From an uncultured virus (IMG/VR IMGVR_UViG_3300028364_000031) (taxonomy: Duplodnaviria; Heunggongvirae; Uroviricota; Caudoviricetes), in IMG/VR virus record IMGVR_UViG_3300028364_000031: a DNA stretch of 20,000 bases. One strand, written 5' to 3'. Under the pieces are notes generated by a model, which was not told the DNA's origin, did no database searches, and saw only the letters and a program-made list of their open reading frames with translations. Made by a program: the position numbers and the translations under genes. Each line of letters starts with the position of its first letter. Position 1 is the stretch's first letter. Below, piece by piece: positions 1,469 to 19,443 of the stretch.

Positions 1469-1681
1469 TTTCCGCAGCGGATGTCTGTGCATACTCGATT
1501 GCAGTCGAGCATATACACAAGTCTCCTTGCTTAGATGACTGGATTTGAACCAGCGACTTCCACCCTCTAGGCGGCACTCTGACCTGACTGAGCTACATCT
1601 AACTTTGTGAGCACTGCAAAATTGCAATACTTCTGAATACTTCGGATTTCACCAGCACATCTTGCAAGATGTGCTGGTTAC
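1469..1681 (-). ncRNA. Structured RNA module A with embedded tRNA-like core
   Basis: Minus strand order: 28-nt perfect palindrome (1651-1678), ATTCAGAAGTA, hairpin, TGCTC, AAAG, tRNA-like core, CAAGGAG, hairpin, ATCCG-CTG-CGGAAA. Module B has the same order. Confidence 0.7.
1531..1602 (-). pseudogene. tRNA-like element with 5-nt anticodon loop and no encoded CCA
   Basis: TTAGATG-TA-GCTC AGTCAGGTCA GAGT-G-CCGCC TAGAG GGTGG-AAGTC-GCTGG TTCAAAT CCAGT-CATCTAA-GCA. Confidence 0.8.
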
Positions 1682-1899
1682 TTTCCGTTGCGGATATGCC
1701 TAAACATGTTCATAGGCTCCTGAGTATGATGGTTGGGCTTGAACCAACGACGCCCGCTTGTTAGCGGTGCTCTACCAACTGAGCTACATCAAACTTTTTT
1801 CGAGCATTATAATACAGTATTATAATACTTCTGAATTTAAAGGCCGTGGTGGAAAGGTTATTTACGGTGTAAAAAGTTTAACCACCACGGTGCTACTTT
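1682..1899 (-). ncRNA. Structured RNA module B with embedded tRNA-like core
   Basis: Minus strand order: AAAGTA, CCGTGGTGG/CCACCACGG hairpin, ATTCAGAAGTA, hairpin, TGCTC, AAAG, tRNA-like core, CAGGAG, hairpin, ATCCG-CAA-CGGAAA. Confidence 0.7.
1725..1793 (-). pseudogene. tRNA-like element with 4-nt anticodon loop and no encoded CCA
   Basis: TTTGATG-TA-GCTC AGTTGGTA GAGC-A-CCGCT AACA AGCGG-GCGTC-GTTGG TTCAAGC CCAAC-CATCATA-CTCA. Confidence 0.8.
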
Positions 1900-3576: not shown

Positions 3577-3650
3577 TGGTGGAGGATAACGGAATCGAAC
3601 CGTTCGGTCGAGAATGCAAAACTCATCCTGTGCTCCCAACAACATCCCCC
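3577..3650 (-). tRNA. tRNA-Ala(TGC), atypical D arm
   Basis: GGGGGAT/ATCCTCC acceptor with G3:U70, loop TTTGCAT, T-arm AACGG-TTCGATT-CCGTT, ACCA end. Confidence 0.8.
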
Positions 3651-3735: not shown

Positions 3736-3789
3736 GTTAAAAATATTTTAAGTATGCGCACAGTTTATCCACTATGCACATAGTTAAAA

Positions 3790-3873
3790 TGGTGGTACAG
3801 GTAGGACTCGAACCTACTAAGTCATAGACGCCAGATTCAGAGTCTGGTACTCTACCAGTTAAGCTACTTCCCT
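3790..3873 (-). pseudogene. tRNA with CTG (Gln) anticodon whose 5' acceptor strand is replaced by the end of the upstream CDS
   Basis: D arm, CCAGA-CTCTGAA-TCTGG arm, T arm and CTGTACC-ACCA end are intact. The 5' strand AGGGAAG pairs poorly and encodes the last codons of 3864..4490. Confidence 0.75.
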
Positions 3874-10800: not shown

Positions 10801-11121
10801 CTATTCTATGTGTTCTATCGCTTTACCGGGTTCAGCCTTTTTCCAGTCTGGCCAACTTCTATTTTCATTTTTAGATAGTTTAGCTGCCAATGTATCTACA
10901 ATTTCTCTTGGAGAAACTGCTCCACCTTGACTACGCCATGCCCCATCGAACGCTAGGAGTATTACATCAATCCATTCCTCCAAATCCGTTGGGTCTTCTT
11001 CAATTTCTAGAAGTTCTTTTCGGATATGATTAATTGCACCCCTCCAATTGTTGTTAGTGGGTGGGCCGAAGGTTTTTGCACTAAACTTTTGTTGTCGTTC
11101 AAGATGTTCTTCTAAGTTCAT
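10801..11121 (-). CDS. DUF550 dATP/dGTP pyrophosphohydrolase-domain protein
   Basis: FS.KTFGP, HIRKELLEI..DPTDLEEWIDVILLAFDGAWR and K..KN..R.WPDW motifs. Confidence 0.9.
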   Translation of the reverse strand: MNLEEHLERQQKFSAKTFGPPTNNNWRGAINHIRKELLEIEEDPTDLEEWIDVILLAFDGAWRSQGGAVSPREIVDTLAAKLSKNENRSWPDWKKAEPGKAIEHIE

Positions 11122-11125
11122 TTTT

Positions 11126-11449
11126 TTAATCCCTTATGGTAAGCGGTAAGCCCCCAAGCACTTCGCTAGTGGACATAAAGTGAAAATCGGTAATCGAGTG
11201 GTCTGGGTGCGTAAAATTTAATAGGGTATTGACTTCGCTATGTGTCAACCACTCAGAATCTACTACTTCCACATGGGTGTTTTTGGGTATGGGAAATATC
11301 GTGCTAGTTTCTAAGGATAAGAGTGCTATACAGGATGTTACATTTGTGTACCCAATTATCTGGTAAAAATCAAAGGGACCCCGTTGAACAATTGTTCCAA
11401 CTCTAATTCTATCGGAATTATCTTCGTCTTGCGGTCTAAATTTCATCAT
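11126..11449 (-). CDS. Hypothetical protein
   Basis: 107 aa with AAGGAG RBS and its own promoter. Confidence 0.75.
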   Translation of the reverse strand: MMKFRPQDEDNSDRIRVGTIVQRGPFDFYQIIGYTNVTSCIALLSLETSTIFPIPKNTHVEVVDSEWLTHSEVNTLLNFTHPDHSITDFHFMSTSEVLGGLPLTIRD

Positions 11450-11473
11450 TACTATGCTCCTTAATAAGGGTTA

Positions 11474-11502
11474 ATTGTAGCAATAACGAGGATTAAAGTC
11501 AA
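11474..11502 (-). promoter_or_regulatory. Sigma70-type promoter
   Basis: TTGACT-17nt-TACAAT. Confidence 0.75.
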
Positions 11503-11518
11503 GAAGAAGTAAATAATA

Positions 11519-11553
11519 TGGTGCAATACGACTGAATTGAACAGTCGTATTGC
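11519..11553 (-). ncRNA. 35-nt tRNA minihelix (acceptor stem plus T arm plus ACCA)
   Basis: GCAATAC-GACTG-TTCAATT-CAGTC-GTATTGC-A-CCA, all 12 bp Watson-Crick. Confidence 0.75.
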
Positions 11554-11560
11554 ACAAATT

Positions 11561-11636
11561 TGGCAAGTGTGGAGGGAGTCGAACCCCCAACCGGCGGCTT
11601 TGGAGGCCGCTGCTCTACCAATTAAGCTACACACTT
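11561..11636 (-). tRNA. tRNA-Trp(CCA)
   Basis: AAGTGTG/CACACTT acceptor, GCGGC-CTCCAAA-GCCGC anticodon arm, GCCA end. Confidence 0.95.
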
Positions 11637-11644
11637 ATTAATTG

Positions 11645-11933
11645 TTAATTTATCTCAGGGGGTCCAATAATTATACTAAAGCTCCTAACATCTGTGCCTA
11701 CAAATGTAGCTTTTAGTTTATTACTATCAATTAAAATCCGGTGGATTATTTTCTTCATCACACTTAACCTCAAATGGTGTATTGTGTTTTTGTAGAATCA
11801 CTTCCAACTCTTCACGTATAAAAGCTCTACGTGTCTCATCGTTCGTTGTACCAAGTATGTCGGGGTGTAATAACCTATTCATAAGCTCTTCTTTTAGTTC
11901 GTTCGATACTTCTTCTCTAATTGATTCTTTCAT
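11645..11933 (-). CDS. Small protein resembling the tail-sheath C-terminal domain, with a +1 frameshift near 11733
   Basis: NDETRRAFIR...FEVKCDEENNPPD in the annotated frame. After removing one T from GATTTTAATT it continues LIDSNKLKATFVGTDVRSFSIIIGPPEIN*. Confidence 0.65.
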
Positions 11934-11964
11934 CTTTAACCCTTTTCAGTTTTTGGTTTTTCTA

Positions 11965-12297
11965 CTACAGCGTATTATCTTTACACTTTCTCAGATTATC
12001 TTTGTGACGATTTACTAGTTCTATAATGGCATCCAAATCCTCATCTCGAACCATGCAAGTATCCCAATGCGCTTGCCTACTGGATAGACCGAATACATAT
12101 TTGAATGCTAACCACACTCGTTTCCACCAAGGCATATAGACGGAGAGTTGTGAATGAATATGAAGTTCACTATATGGGGGGGACATTTCGTCCACGCTCA
12201 AATCCTCATATAATGCAACAACAGTCATGTGACCGAGGTTAGTGCATTGACAGGATAGATGAATTTCTTTAAAATGTTCTTCGTTTGTATTAGCCAT
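11965..12297 (-). CDS. Hypothetical phage protein
   Basis: CQC..H and PWWKRVWLAFKYVFG motifs; AAGGA RBS. Confidence 0.8.
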   Translation of the reverse strand: MANTNEEHFKEIHLSCQCTNLGHMTVVALYEDLSVDEMSPPYSELHIHSQLSVYMPWWKRVWLAFKYVFGLSSRQAHWDTCMVRDEDLDAIIELVNRHKDNLRKCKDNTL

Positions 12298-13732: not shown

Positions 13733-13880
13733 AATGTAGGAAAGTGAATAGCGCCTTTTTAAAAGTCTGTTGCTCTAACCATCTGAGCTACCTCTCAACT
13801 TGTTGAGAGGGCAGGACTCGAACCTGCGACCTACAGATTACCATAATTTGTAGAAGGATGCACTAAAAATGGCCTACATT
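13733..13880 (-). ncRNA. YrlA/Y-RNA-like RNA with circularly permuted tRNA-Lys(TTT) domain (unit 1)
   Basis: AATGTAGG/CCTACATT outer stem enclosing TCTGT, T arm GCAGG-TTCGAGT-CCTGC, closed acceptor CCTCTCAAC/GTTGAGAGG, D arm GCTC..GAGC, then ACAGA-CTTTTAA. Confidence 0.8.
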
Positions 13881-14116: not shown

Positions 14117-15000
14117 CTGAAGACTGAGATTACATCTTTCAGATGGATGCCTTTGGACCGTACCCAGACCTTTGCGTTCAGCCGGTTAATCCGTTATCCA
14201 CTAAGACGCGTTAGCTATCCTAGTATCATCCAACGATGCCTTTTTTAAGGTGTAGCTGTTCACCTGTCATACACTACTACTCGACCTTCGATCTTCCGCT
14301 GACCTTCAGGGCCATTCAAAGTCGCTAAACTTTTACGTCTTCTCTCCGATCAAACAACGCCACCTTGCGAGTTTTGTTGCACCAGATTCCGTTAGGTCTG
14401 ATATTAATCGTCTTTAATAGTTGTACCGAGGCAGACTTTCGCTTTGAAAACAATAATGGGGCTTGAACCCACAATATTCTGATATTGAGTCAGATGCCTG
14501 TACCAATTCGGCTATATCGTTACCTACCAAGAAGTGCTGCCTCAGTTGCTTCATACCTTGTTAGATACAAAATACAACACTCCTCACTGTCTTTTGCCTT
14601 GCGAGCTACTTGACATCTTTTCACGACTGAAGCGATTAAACTTCTTCCGATCAAGATGGTATAGAGCATCTTTTGCGCGAACAATCGAACTCTACACCTA
14701 CACCTTAGTATTACGTGCTCATCGAGTTGGCTGGCAAAGATGGTAGCGCCAACTACCTTATCGCTCACCGAATGGCTCTGCGACTATCCTTTCGGACCTT
14801 CACCCTCAATTTCACACCTACCGCACTTATTATCATACGGGAAAGCCTTAGAGTCTACACTCGTACTTTCTAACTGGTGCTTGCATGACTTGACCCTTAC
14901 GGGACGGGAAAAATGTAGGACATTTTCCCTTTACTACGGTTACCCGTAGCAAGCATTCATGCTTTAAACTGCTGATCTGAATCTTTCGATCTAGATCATG
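14117..15000 (-). ncRNA. Large structured ncRNA, GOLLD-like (~880 nt)
   Basis: No credible ORF and GC-richer than the flanks. Many GNRA-capped hairpins (GATC-GAAA-GATT, CTACGG-GTAA-CCGTAG, CCC-GTAA-GGG, TCC-GAAA-GGA, CTC-GCAA-GG). Dedicated promoter, 3' GTAATCTCAG end, embedded tRNA and phage tRNA-cluster context. Confidence 0.8.
14449..14521 (-). tRNA. tRNA-Leu(CAA)-like element embedded in the large ncRNA (short variable loop, U37, no CCA)
   Basis: AACGATA/TATTGTT acceptor, GCC..GGC D arm, TCTGA-CTCAATA-TCAGA arm, GTGGG-TTCAAGC-CCCAT T arm. Confidence 0.75.
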
Positions 15001-15063: not shown

Positions 15064-15345
15064 TTATTGGGAATAGTTTTTTATGATTTCTTCACCGATA
15101 GAAAGTTGGGTTTCGAACGTATCACCACCCATTTCCATTTTAACTCGAAGAACCCCATACCTTCCTTTAGATATATGTGCTTCCTTTACTCTGAGGGTGA
15201 CCTGTTCAAGTGCTTCGGCCATAAACCTTTCAAGTATATGACCCGGACAGTTGTCCGGGTCGGGTAGATAACACTTAGTCATAAAGTCGGCCAAGCTGGC
15301 TTTAACAAAACCATCTAAGTCCTCCACATAGCGCTCCAGTTTCAT
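15064..15345 (-). CDS. Hypothetical protein
   Basis: 93 aa, TAATG coupling to the vWA gene. Confidence 0.75.
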   Translation of the reverse strand: MKLERYVEDLDGFVKASLADFMTKCYLPDPDNCPGHILERFMAEALEQVTLRVKEAHISKGRYGVLRVKMEMGGDTFETQLSIGEEIIKNYSQ

Positions 15346-15938
15346 TACTGGTTGGAAGCCCTATAACTAGCTACAGTTTGACTCATGTCTACATATGCAG
15401 CACTTACACCGTCGGCTGTTGCCCTAAAGTTAATATTGTTGGAGATGCCTCTACTGGCACCTTCCTCAAATGCATCTTGATTTGCCGCTAGATATACAAT
15501 CTGCCAACCTTTTTCGCCTTCAGCTTTCTGTATCATCTCTTTAATCTGATAATTGTTATATTCCTTACTGGCATTTTCCATACCATCGGTTATAATACAG
15601 ATAATAGCTTTTTCAGGATTCTTTTGCATCAATGTGCTTATGGCTTTACCAATTGCATCATTCATAGCAGTCATCCCTCTAGGACCAATAGTTTTTAATG
15701 GTTGTACTTCGGCTAATGGTACAGAATTGAGTTTTACCTCATATTGATCATCAAATAACACTAGAGTTAGATTTGCATCACCCTCTACCGCTTTCTGTTC
15801 GGTGAGGAAAGTGTTGAATCCTCCAACCGCATCAGATTCGATACTGGACATTGATCCTGATCTATCCGCAATAATTAAAATTTCTACGGCATCATTTTCT
15901 GTAAATTTAAACGGGACGTACTCTGCGTACTCTGACAT
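15345..15938 (-). CDS. von Willebrand factor A (vWA) domain protein
   Basis: MIDAS motifs DRSGSM, GMTAMNDA and IITDGMEN; AAGGAG RBS. Confidence 0.92.
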   Translation of the reverse strand: MSEYAEYVPFKFTENDAVEILIIADRSGSMSSIESDAVGGFNTFLTEQKAVEGDANLTLVLFDDQYEVKLNSVPLAEVQPLKTIGPRGMTAMNDAIGKAISTLMQKNPEKAIICIITDGMENASKEYNNYQIKEMIQKAEGEKGWQIVYLAANQDAFEEGASRGISNNINFRATADGVSAAYVDMSQTVASYRASNQ

Positions 15939-16282: not shown

Positions 16283-17269
16283 TTATTGTTCTAAATGTCT
16301 AACAATGCGTTCTATCCGTGGTCTCAAAAATTTAACACCACCAGAATCTCTAACTTCTAGTTCACATGATAATAATCCGGTGAACATTTCAAATTTACCT
16401 TCTATGTTTTTAATTGTATAGTCCACTTTGCTAATTGATGTTGGGTAATTGTGGGTATACCTTGGTGATGGGCTTTTATGATAAATGTCCTTGAACCATC
16501 CAGTAACTTCAACCTGACCACCAGAGCCACAGCGTTCAACCGCAAAAATGTTGTTCCATAGATCAGTGCGCTCTACTGGAGTCAGTGAGGATGATTCCAG
16601 CCCTCTAATAATTTGTAATACCGTGGATCGGGCTTTATTTAAATACTGACCAACCTCCGTGCCCCCAAAAACTTCGTTTGAAGAGAGCTTGATTATTGTG
16701 TCATGTATATTCTTCCAATCACTAGATGTTCCTACCACCCGTATTTTAGGAAACCCGCACATGTACATTGAATATGTATAATATGGACTAACTATATCCC
16801 CAAATGAACTCATAGCCGCAAAATCATATAGCGTGTCAAATGTATTCATTTCTGGAAAAAATAGTGAATGATCAACATTTATTTTATTTTTCAGTTTGTT
16901 AGTAATCCTATCAATGGCTAATACGATACTGCCACCAGATTCTACCAATATTTCTTCTTTATCATCACTATCGGTAAAGAATTTTCTATAGTCTTCGGGA
17001 TTTTCTGAAACAATAGTAGCAATTTCACCCAACACAGTCAACCACACGTTTTCATGGGTTAGATATATTCCTTTGTGTGCATTGTATGCCATTTCAAAAT
17101 ATTGCATATGTCCTAATACTGGGATACTCCCCTGATTAGATTCATGAACAATTTTGCCCTTTCCATAGATCAAATCATTCATTTTGTTTGAGTTTTTTGT
17201 AGAGTTTACTCCATCTATGTACGATAAGCTTGTGTTTAAATCGAATTCTGTTATAAAATTATTATTCAT
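16283..17269 (-). CDS. DUF4419 domain protein
   Basis: AYNAH..L....VWLT, CGFPKIRVVGTSSDW and GSGG..VTGW motifs. Confidence 0.8.
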   Translation of the reverse strand: MNNNFITEFDLNTSLSYIDGVNSTKNSNKMNDLIYGKGKIVHESNQGSIPVLGHMQYFEMAYNAHKGIYLTHENVWLTVLGEIATIVSENPEDYRKFFTDSDDKEEILVESGGSIVLAIDRITNKLKNKINVDHSLFFPEMNTFDTLYDFAAMSSFGDIVSPYYTYSMYMCGFPKIRVVGTSSDWKNIHDTIIKLSSNEVFGGTEVGQYLNKARSTVLQIIRGLESSSLTPVERTDLWNNIFAVERCGSGGQVEVTGWFKDIYHKSPSPRYTHNYPTSISKVDYTIKNIEGKFEMFTGLLSCELEVRDSGGVKFLRPRIERIVRHLEQ

Positions 17270-19083: not shown

Positions 19084-19443
19084 TCATGTTAGCAGTTTTA
19101 AATGCTTCAAACCTTCTGCCAACTCCATTGGGATTGGTCCTATTCCTACGCAAGTTTGTGTGGGTCCCCCAAAAACCGTAAACCCGGAATCTACCACTTT
19201 GGTTATTCCACAAACATCCATATACTTGGAATACAATTCTTCTAGCTCTATTTGTGTATCCACCGCGCAAGTGATCTTAAAAGCGTGATCGGAGTTTTTA
19301 TACGCTTCAGCATATTCTGGAAACCTCTTTTCGGAATCCCAATAAGCATGTAAAAAAGCGTGACCAGCTTGTGAAGTCATTTTACCTCGAATACCATTCA
19401 TTTCTTTAAGAGCTTCTTTAGAAAATATGCAATACATCTTCAT
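19084..19443 (-). CDS. pth2: Peptidyl-tRNA hydrolase, Pth2 family
   Basis: GKMTSQAGHA, KI and VVDSGFT....T.TCVGIGP motifs. Confidence 0.92.
   Translation of the reverse strand: MKMYCIFSKEALKEMNGIRGKMTSQAGHAFLHAYWDSEKRFPEYAEAYKNSDHAFKITCAVDTQIELEELYSKYMDVCGITKVVDSGFTVFGGPTQTCVGIGPIPMELAEGLKHLKLLT

What the first reader, a model, noticed from the sequence alone, without database searches (positions are those of the whole stretch)
11519..11553. Genome-encoded canonical 35-nt tRNA minihelix
Seen: exactly 7 bp acceptor plus 5 bp T stem, a 7-nt TTCAATT T loop, A73 and CCA, all Watson-Crick, 7 nt downstream of tRNA-Trp. Known: such minihelices are substrates for RNase P, CCA-adding enzyme, several synthetases and EF-Tu in vitro. 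Inference: a natural minihelix RNA acting as decoy, amino-acid donor or processing signal rather than a plain terminator, since the following U tract is weak.
Basis: partly seen in the sequence, partly recalled or inferred. Interest (0 to 1): 0.7.

Follow-up and report, generated by a model that had tools for sequence, protein, structure and literature searches.

The report
tRNA-top-half hairpin trailing phage tRNA-Trp
Right after a tRNA-Trp gene of an uncultured lake phage sits a strong RNA hairpin that copies the top half of a tRNA; it most likely ends or marks the tRNA transcript and guides the tRNA-trimming enzyme RNase P, but no related phage or RNA data were available to test this.

Summary
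On the minus strand, 7 nt after the encoded CCA of tRNA-Trp, lies GCAATAC-GACTG-TTCAATT-CAGTC-GTATTGC-A-CCA (11553..11519).

The helix is not "exactly 12 bp", however. U-1 and G-2 pair with A73 and C74, giving a perfect 14-bp stem (11555..11521, -22.9 kcal/mol). This is the longest perfect hairpin in the window. After it come a T-rich tail, a sigma-70-like promoter, an SD and a 107-aa ORF.

The joint chance of a T-loop consensus, G53:C61 and NCCA on such a hairpin is about 4e-6. The resemblance to a tRNA is therefore probably real, by descent or by mimicry.

No comparative test was possible. The only related DNA found is the same phage at 99.8% identity. No parent tRNA, no second copy and no RNA run were found.

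Best reading (about 0.4): a tRNA-derived trailer hairpin of the tRNA-Trp unit that works as a terminator or 3' protector and as an RNase P handle. The predicted cut falls between U and G, 7 nt after CCA, the geometry reported for the E. coli leuX terminator.

A free, trans-acting 35-nt minihelix remains possible (about 0.17).

Earlier unchecked notes of this scan report similar CCA-ended minihelices in other phage tRNA arrays.

The parts
11561..11636 (-). tRNA-Trp (anticodon CCA), with G73 and CCA encoded
   Evidence: ARAGORN; Rfam RF00005 68.7 bits; sequence
11554..11560 (-). 7-nt spacer AAUUUGU between the CCA of tRNA-Trp and position +1 of the minihelix. Its last two bases (G-2, U-1) pair with C74 and A73.
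   Evidence: Sequence. The same 7-nt spacing occurs for Ala2->Ile and Glu->tRNA-like(3650).
11519..11553 (-).
   Evidence: Fold -19.5 kcal/mol, z -8.6.
11521..11555 (-). The hairpin as it folds in the transcript: a perfect 14-bp stem with a 7-nt loop
   Evidence: -22.9 kcal/mol, z -9.5. Longest of the 8 perfect hairpins of >=8 bp in the window.
11503..11520 (-). T-rich tail CAUAUUAUUUACUUCUUC: a weak U tract, possibly also the A/T-rich region upstream of the next promoter
   Evidence: Sequence; the terminator-like call uses the first 10 bases
11474..11502 (-). Sigma-70-like promoter match: TTGACT, 17 nt, TACAAT, with TG before the second hexamer (10 of 12)
   Evidence: This is a consensus match only; the window as a whole has no excess of such matches (64 found against 62.9 expected).
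11126..11449 (-). Next gene: a 107-aa ORF with AAGGAG 7 nt before the ATG and no family match
   Evidence: The only relative found is the same phage.
3753..3782 (-). Comparison element in the same array. A 12-bp stem (2 G.U pairs, loop GGAUAA) starts 7 nt after the CCA of a decayed tRNA. It is extended by 7 A-U pairs across a C/C mismatch, followed by AUUUUU, and has no T loop and no CCA.
   Evidence: -21.1 kcal/mol for 3792..3736

Best explanation
The element is the 3' trailer hairpin of the tRNA-Trp transcription unit. It is built from, or shaped like, the top half of a tRNA.

Proposed working:
1. It is transcribed with tRNA-Trp (inferred from strand and the 7-nt distance).
2. The 14-bp hairpin stops or pauses RNA polymerase and/or shields the 3' end. 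The next gene is driven by its own promoter 18 nt further on (inferred from consensus matches).
3. The hairpin keeps the 12-bp acceptor/T-stem length, a consensus T loop, G+1, U-1 and RCCA. Host RNase P should therefore recognise it as a tRNA top half and cut between U-1 and G+1, 7 nt after the CCA of tRNA-Trp. That would leave a short trailer for 3' exonucleases (inferred by analogy with E. coli leuX and valU).
4. A hairpin RNA of about 35 nt ending near CCA would be released as a by-product.

Its origin is most likely a tRNA gene that lost positions 8-48, or whose 3' half was copied into a perfect palindrome. This array also holds other decayed tRNA genes.
For: Shown by sequence:
- The anatomy and the 7-nt spacing.
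- A perfect 14-bp stem, -22.9 kcal/mol, the strongest hairpin in the window.
- A terminator-like call and an adjacent promoter-like site with a TG motif.
- The U|G junction lies exactly 7 nt after CCA.
- The joint chance of the tRNA marks is 3.7e-6.

Context:
- Seven nt is the recurring slot spacing in this array: Ala2->Ile, Glu->tRNA-like and a decayed tRNA->hairpin.
- Another tRNA(-like) gene is followed directly by a long hairpin plus U5, so this phage does place terminator-type hairpins against CCA.
- The array holds decayed or odd tRNA genes.

Literature (passages read):
- RNase P removes the leuX terminator by a cut between U and G, 7 nt downstream of CCA, and the valU terminator 3 nt downstream (PMC4176162 discussion; PMC2811032 abstract and discussion).
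- E. coli tRNA genes carry terminators with stems of 7-13 nt next to CCA (PMC2811032 Table 1).
Against: - No RNA evidence of any kind (one search lists no RNA holder).
- No diverged homologue, so selection on the stem, T loop or CCA is untested. The only related DNA is 99.8% identical.
- The U tract is weak: 1 U in the first 4 tail bases.
- Pairing of N-1/N-2 with the discriminator and C74 is reported to change RNase P rates and site choice (PMC12710915 passages). The 14-bp form is therefore not an ideal RNase P substrate.
- The host and its RNase P type are unknown.
- 10 of the 11 other CCA-ending tRNA(-like) genes have A after CCA, whereas this element has T.
- If it were only a terminator, nothing would hold the T loop and CCA in place.
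Confidence: 0.4

Rival explanations
1. Stand-alone minihelix RNA gene. RNase P and 3' trimming release a stable 35-nt CCA-ended RNA that acts in trans. It could be a decoy or sponge for proteins that read the acceptor stem and CCA end, such as tRNA-targeting defence toxins, or a substrate of a synthetase, the CCA-adding enzyme or EF-Tu.
For: - Canonical 7+5 bp, T loop, G53:C61, G1:C72, A73 and CCA.
- It sits at the array's 7-nt slot spacing, like a tRNA gene.
- The phage invests in tRNA-related RNAs and proteins: GOLLD, a YrlA-like RNA and PTH2.
- A synthetic tRNA-Gly minihelix is efficiently modified by the antiphage toxSAS FaRel2, which reads acceptor pairs 1, 2, 4, 5 and the CCA (PMC11559606 passages).
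- Unchecked earlier notes of this scan report conserved minihelices in other phage tRNA arrays.
Against: - A73 and C74 are paired with the leader in the precursor.
- No second copy in the window, and none in 117 T-loop/ACCAT matches from viral contigs or in two GenBank phage tRNA arrays.
- No bacterial or viral tRNA shares the acceptor stem that a decoy would copy. Hosts whose tRNA genes lack an encoded CCA were not covered.
- No RNA data.
Confidence: 0.17
2. Inert relic. A tRNA gene of the array lost its D and anticodon arms, by internal deletion or by template switching that turned the 3' half into a perfect palindrome. The product has no selected role beyond whatever a hairpin does incidentally.
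For: - Several neighbours are decaying. One tRNA has 3 non-standard acceptor pairs. A tRNA-like gene goes uncalled by ARAGORN and Rfam. One tRNA has a 2-nt anticodon call.
- Template switching would explain why all 14 pairs, including those to A73 and C74, are perfect Watson-Crick.
Against: - An old relic should have accumulated mismatches, yet the stem has none in 14 pairs and all five conserved T-loop positions are intact. It would have to be very recent.
- No parent tRNA was found in the window (best 3'-half identity 19/28) or in the collections.
Confidence: 0.2
3. Plain Rho-independent terminator of tRNA-Trp. The T-loop-like loop and the CCA are coincidence.
For: - Terminator-like call.
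- A promoter-like site follows.
- Ordinary architecture for tRNA genes (PMC2811032 Table 1).
- The scan covers very many windows, so rare coincidences will turn up.
Against: - Joint probability 3.7e-6 per hairpin, before counting its place 7 nt after a tRNA on the same strand.
- A 14-bp stem and a 7-nt loop are long for a terminator, and the U tract is weak.
Confidence: 0.1
4. DNA-level palindrome: a binding site for a dimeric regulator, or a cruciform, upstream of the promoter of the 107-aa gene. Its centre lies about 70 bp upstream of the presumed start.
For: A perfect inverted repeat lies 18 bp upstream of a -35-like hexamer.
Against: Arms of 14 bp with a 7-bp spacer are unlike usual operators. 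This reading explains none of the tRNA marks. No regulator gene was identified nearby.
Confidence: 0.04

Closest known systems
RNase P-mediated removal of Rho-independent terminators from E. coli tRNA transcripts (leuX; valU and lysT operons; Mohanty & Kushner, PMC2811032 and PMC4176162; passages read)
   Same: A hairpin lies a few nt after the encoded CCA of the last tRNA of a unit. For leuX the reported RNase P cut falls between U and G, 7 nt after CCA. The same dinucleotide at the same distance marks the base of the 12-bp helix here.
   Different: The E. coli terminators are not described as tRNA mimics, and leuX cleavage is inefficient (about 10% of transcripts). Here the hairpin carries a full T loop, a 12-bp ruler length and RCCA, which would make it a far better RNase P substrate. 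Cleavage is untested here.
Synthetic 35-nt acceptor/T-arm minihelices and model hairpin substrates of RNase P, synthetases and toxSAS (PMC12710915, PMC11559606; passages read)
   Same: The same design: 12 bp, a 7-nt T loop and NCCA.
   Different: Those are laboratory constructs cut out of real tRNAs. This one is genome-encoded, matches no tRNA found, and in its precursor has N-1 and N-2 paired to 73 and 74.
tRNA-like processing signals inside longer transcripts: plant mitochondrial t-elements (PMC1920247; search listing and start of abstract only)
   Same: A tRNA-like fold without decoding function that would define transcript ends through tRNA-processing enzymes.
   Different: A different kingdom and no sequence relation. 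Here the element is only the top half and sits directly behind a real tRNA.
Phage and bacterial non-tRNA substrates of RNase P, such as the precursor of the C4 antisense RNA of phages P1 and P7 and 4.5S RNA (named in PMC12710915 introduction and in the listings; the details are recalled, not read)
   Same: Hairpin-type RNAs of phages matured at the 5' end by RNase P.
   Different: Those RNAs have known trans functions and lack a canonical T loop.
Earlier notes of this scan on CCA-ended minihelices in phage tRNA arrays (e1-6062726, e1-5733862, e1-5854192, e1-5966079; unchecked AI notes)
   Same: Hairpins of 34-35 nt ending in NCCA in tRNA slots of uncultured phages.
   Different: They are on other DNA with no sequence likeness (no look-alike). 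Some are reported as conserved with compensatory changes, which could not be tested for this one.

Membership tests
Acceptor/T-arm tRNA minihelix | Coaxial 7-bp acceptor stem plus 5-bp T stem (12 bp) | tested here: met
   12 Watson-Crick pairs at 11553..11519. The helix continues for 2 further pairs.
Acceptor/T-arm tRNA minihelix | 7-nt T loop T54-T55-C56-R57-A58-N-N closed by G53:C61 | tested here: met
   The loop is TTCAATT between G and C. The window's real tRNAs have TTCRANN closed by G:C as well.
Acceptor/T-arm tRNA minihelix | Single-stranded discriminator plus CCA at the 3' end | tested here: inconclusive
   ACCA is present. It is free in the isolated 35-mer, but A73 and C74 pair with U-1 and G-2 in the precursor fold.
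Acceptor/T-arm tRNA minihelix | Exists as a discrete RNA of about 35 nt and is used by RNase P, the CCA enzyme, a synthetase or EF-Tu | not testable with these tools
   No RNA run listed. The laid DNA contigs did not cover the hairpin.
tRNA gene (Rfam RF00005 / ARAGORN) | Cloverleaf with D arm and anticodon arm | tested here: not met
   Not called by ARAGORN. No RF00005 match on the hairpin at gathering or at E<=10. The only match is an antisense-tRNA-like plastid model on the + strand (21.8 bits, E 0.021) with its 42 middle positions deleted.
Rho-independent terminator | Stable G+C-containing stem-loop at the end of a transcription unit | tested here: met
   14 pairs, 7 of them G-C, -22.9 kcal/mol. 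It lies directly behind tRNA-Trp and before a promoter-like site.
Rho-independent terminator | U tract directly after the stem | tested here: inconclusive
   The tail is CAUAUUAUUU. It passes the lenient scan (>=5 T in 8) but has only 1 U in the first 4 bases. Terminator-like sites in the window are not above shuffles (10 against 13.1).
RNase P-removed tRNA terminator (leuX type) | Hairpin within a few nt of CCA, with a U|G junction at the cut site | tested here: met
   U(11554)|G(11553) lies 7 nt after CCA. The leuX cut is between U and G, 7 nt after CCA (PMC4176162 passage).
RNase P-removed tRNA terminator (leuX type) | Actual cleavage by RNase P | not testable with these tools
   Needs an enzyme assay or RNA end mapping.
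Conserved structured RNA family | Homologues with compensatory base-pair changes | tested here: inconclusive
   No diverged homologue in phages, viral contigs, metagenome contigs (only the same phage, 99.8% identical) or this scan's index.

The most novel reading that the evidence does not exclude
The phage makes a free, CCA-ended 35-nt minihelix, cut out by RNase P like a tRNA. This RNA works in trans as a decoy for host proteins that read only the acceptor stem and CCA end. Examples are tRNA-targeting defence toxins of the toxSAS type, one of which modifies a synthetic minihelix efficiently in vitro (PMC11559606). It would belong to a wider, undescribed class of anticodon-less 'tRNA tops' in phage tRNA arrays.
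Probability: 0.12. Interest if true: 0.8.

Novelty: new variant of a known kind. Interest (0 to 1): 0.45.

Why it matters
Minihelices have been laboratory tools for decades. Two full-text searches (listings and abstract starts only) listed no paper describing a natural, genome-encoded one.

If RNase P cuts here, the element shows how a phage can keep the "processing handle" of a tRNA after discarding its decoding half. It would also give a clean natural case of a terminator that is built to be removed by RNase P.

If the released RNA acts in trans, it would be a new kind of phage counter-measure against defences that attack the tRNA acceptor end.

If it is only a relic or an ordinary terminator, it is a curiosity of tRNA-array decay.

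Tried and rejected
**Homologues**
- megablast and blastn of the region against GenBank phages: only tRNA-Trp matches. One apparent extension into the hairpin (H1) was a bacterial tufA-tRNA-Trp-secE contig.
- blastn of the 46-nt hairpin: 7 chance hits with E >= 0.8.
- Exact hairpin and the tRNA-Trp 3' part in viral contigs: 0.
- Neighbouring proteins in viral contigs: no close relative. L002-L004 are short or distant matches and were not used further.
- Metagenome contigs: one locus, the same phage.
- This scan's index by place and by sequence: nothing.

**Parent tRNA**
- Full-length tRNA with the same acceptor stem in genome contigs: 3 hits, none of them a tRNA.
- The same in viral contigs: 0.
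- Identical T arm: 8 loci, of which one is a tRNA-Cys and one an uncalled tRNA-like. None has this acceptor stem.
- The window's own 13 tRNAs: best match 4/7 and 19/28.

**Class survey**
- All held loci at that point (62 kb): none.
- Two GenBank phage tRNA arrays (L125, L126; 62 kb): none.

**RNA**
- No RNA holder listed.
- Contigs of four lake-water DNA runs laid on 10900..12100 gave identical fragments and no cover of 11474..11555, so nothing on variation.

**Other**
- No whole genome is held.
- tmRNA or a permuted tmRNA: not called.
- attP-type copy of a tRNA 3' half: rejected, because the 5' acceptor strand is present too.
- ORF 11461..11634 (57 aa, GTG start) overlaps the tRNA and the hairpin and is taken as spurious.

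Full report
**What is there**

The window is part of an uncultured lake-water phage, 38.7% G+C. Coded DNA runs labelled lake-water metagenome hold it. Its PHROG and Pfam matches are phage-like.

On the minus strand it carries an array of tRNA genes interspersed with small ORFs. ARAGORN tRNAs. Rfam adds one more, and one further tRNA-like gene is uncalled.

tRNA-Trp(cca) lies at 11636..11561 and ends in G73-CCA.
- there are 12 Watson-Crick pairs;
- the loop fits the T-loop consensus UUCRANN;
- the closing pair is G53:C61;
- the first pair is G1:C72;
- the discriminator is A and CCA follows.

The helix does not stop at 12 pairs. U-1 pairs with A73 and G-2 pairs with C74. The DNA therefore encodes a perfect 14-bp inverted repeat, 11555..11521. 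The precursor folds with A73 and C74 inside the stem at -22.9 kcal/mol (z -9.5). The isolated 35-mer folds at -19.5 kcal/mol.

It is the longest of the eight perfect hairpins of 8 bp or more in the window.

The tail is CAUAUUAUUUACUUCUUC. Eighteen bases after the stem comes a promoter-like site: TTGACT, 17 nt, TACAAT, with a TG motif (10 of 12). After that come AAGGAG, an ATG and a 107-aa ORF without known relatives.

The simple scan classes the hairpin as terminator-like. The U tract is poor, however, and neither promoter-like nor terminator-like sites exceed shuffles over the whole window.

**Is the tRNA likeness chance?**

I used the minus-strand base composition. For a hairpin of 12 bp with a 7-nt loop, the joint probability of UUCRANN, G53:C61 and NCCA is 3.7e-6.

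The scan has read very many windows, so such a coincidence somewhere is not impossible. This one, though, also sits in a tRNA array, on the tRNA strand, at the array's own slot spacing. Seven nt also separates Ala2 from Ile and Glu from the uncalled tRNA-like gene. I therefore take the likeness as real, by descent from a tRNA gene or by selection for tRNA mimicry, with roughly 85-90% confidence.

**No comparative evidence**

This is the main weakness of the case.
- GenBank phages match only the tRNA-Trp itself.
- Viral contigs hold neither the hairpin, nor the tRNA-Trp 3' part, nor close relatives of three flanking proteins.
- The one metagenome locus (L005) is the same phage: 99.8% identity over 3,718 columns, with an identical hairpin.
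- Contigs of four further lake-water runs gave identical fragments and did not cover the hairpin.
- No RNA run was listed.

Searches for a parent tRNA found none. These looked for the same acceptor stem or the same T arm.

A small survey for other minihelices also found none.

Whether the stem, T loop or CCA are under selection therefore cannot be said.

**Context that bears on function**

First, the array contains decaying tRNA genes:
- one with three non-standard acceptor pairs;
- one tRNA-like gene with a G3:U70 acceptor stem, A73 and CCA but an odd D arm and anticodon loop, which ARAGORN does not call and Rfam does not match at E<=0.1;
- one with a 2-nt anticodon call.

A tRNA reduced to its top half fits this picture.

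Second, another tRNA(-like) gene is followed by a hairpin in the same way. Seven nt after its CCA a 12-bp stem begins (3782..3753). The stem is extended by seven A-U pairs across a C/C mismatch and followed by AUUUUU. That one looks like an ordinary intrinsic terminator and has neither a T loop nor a CCA. So this phage does put terminator-type hairpins hard against tRNA 3' ends.

Third, the phage invests heavily in tRNA-related RNA and protein:
- a GOLLD RNA with an embedded tRNA-Leu;
- a YrlA-like Y RNA with a tRNA-like module (below gathering, E 2e-9);
- a PTH2 peptidyl-tRNA hydrolase.

**Most likely mechanism**

E. coli tRNA genes commonly end in a terminator hairpin a few nt after CCA (PMC2811032 Table 1). 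RNase P is reported to remove some of these:
- for leuX, by a cut between U and G, 7 nt downstream of CCA;
- for valU, by a cut 3 nt downstream (PMC4176162 discussion and PMC2811032 abstract and discussion).

The element here offers exactly that junction: U|G, 7 nt after CCA. It also offers everything RNase P measures on a tRNA: the 12-bp stack, the T loop, G+1, U-1 and RCCA.

My best reading (0.4) is therefore a tRNA-derived trailer hairpin. It would end or protect the tRNA-Trp transcript and be clipped off by RNase P, leaving a short trailer for exonucleases.

Shown: the anatomy and the position. Inferred: transcription, termination, cleavage and origin.

Against this reading: pairing of N-1 and N-2 with the discriminator and C74 is reported to alter RNase P rate and site choice (PMC12710915 passages). 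The U tract is also weak, and the host is unknown.

**Rivals**
- A trans-acting free minihelix (0.17). This is plausible because acceptor-end-reading proteins accept minihelices. The antiphage toxSAS FaRel2 efficiently modifies a synthetic tRNA-Gly minihelix (PMC11559606 passages).
- An inert relic (0.2).
- A plain terminator with a chance resemblance (0.1).
- A DNA-level palindrome (0.04).

**Known or new**

Two full-text searches listed no paper that describes a natural phage-encoded acceptor/T-arm minihelix. I saw only listings and abstract starts, apart from the papers quoted above.

Earlier notes of this scan describe similar CCA-ended minihelices in tRNA arrays of other uncultured phages, some said to be conserved. 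They are unchecked AI notes on other DNA and I did not test them. They raise my prior that such elements form a class, but they are not evidence for this one.

I file the element as a new variant of known kinds: a tRNA-gene terminator removable by RNase P, and a tRNA-like processing signal. It fails membership as a tRNA gene. It meets the sequence-level criteria of a minihelix except for a free 3' end in the precursor.

**Verdict**

The function is unproven. Interest is moderate (0.45): the anatomy is striking and easy to test, but the case is a single, unconserved example with an ordinary explanation at hand.

Noticed in passing
window 14121..14585 (-): GOLLD RNA (Rfam RF02032, 151.4 bits against a gathering score of 150, full model 1-416) with tRNA-Leu(caa) 14448..14521 embedded. 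This tRNA does not encode CCA.
   Followed up: partly
window 13745..13866 (-): Y RNA-like match (Rfam YrlA RF02553, 47.9 bits, below the gathering score of 69, E 2.2e-9). It has a permuted tRNA-like module: a T arm GCAGG-TTCGAGT-CCTGC, a closed acceptor-like hairpin CCTCTCAA-CAAG-TTGAGAGG and a D arm TAGCTCAGATGGTTAGAGCA. It lies next to the GOLLD RNA. No Ro/Rsr gene was seen among the ORFs scanned.
   Followed up: partly
window 3577..3650 (-): tRNA-like gene in the slot between tRNA-Glu and tRNA-Pro, 7 nt after the CCA of Glu. Its acceptor GGGGGAT/ATCCTCC has G3:T70, A73 and CCA (the marks of tRNA-Ala). The T arm is AACGG-TTCGATT-CCGTT, but the D arm is odd and the anticodon loop reads AGTTTTG. 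ARAGORN does not call it and Rfam does not match it at E<=0.1. It could be a decayed tRNA or an unusual one.
   Followed up: partly
window 3790..3873 (-): tRNA found only by Rfam (43.1 bits), with 3 non-standard acceptor pairs and an 11-nt insertion. It is followed by a long hairpin (3792..3736, -21.1 kcal/mol) and AUUUUU, just 9 nt before tRNA-Glu.
   Followed up: partly
window 1651..1678 (-): Perfect 12-bp hairpin ACCAGCACATCT-TGCA-AGATGTGCTGGT (-20.3 kcal/mol), midway between tRNA-??? (2-nt anticodon call, 1722..1794) and tRNA-Ser(aga). It has no CCA and no U tract.
   Followed up: no
window 19084..19443 (-): PTH2-type peptidyl-tRNA hydrolase (Pfam PF01981, 1.1e-13) beside the tRNA array. 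The GenBank phage DSS3_MAL1 array also holds a peptidyl-tRNA hydrolase, a nucleotidyltransferase and a tmRNA.
   Followed up: no
window, all CCA-ending tRNA(-like) genes: 11 of 14 tRNA(-like) genes encode CCA. In 10 of these 11 the next base is A, mostly as CCAAWUU. This common A/U-rich trailer may be a shared 3' processing signal. The minihelix has CCAU instead.
   Followed up: no
window 10801..11121 (-), 15345..15938 (-), 16283..17269 (-): A DUF550 dATP/dGTP pyrophosphohydrolase (PF04447, 6e-23), a VWA-domain protein and a DUF4419 protein lie among the tRNA genes.
   Followed up: no
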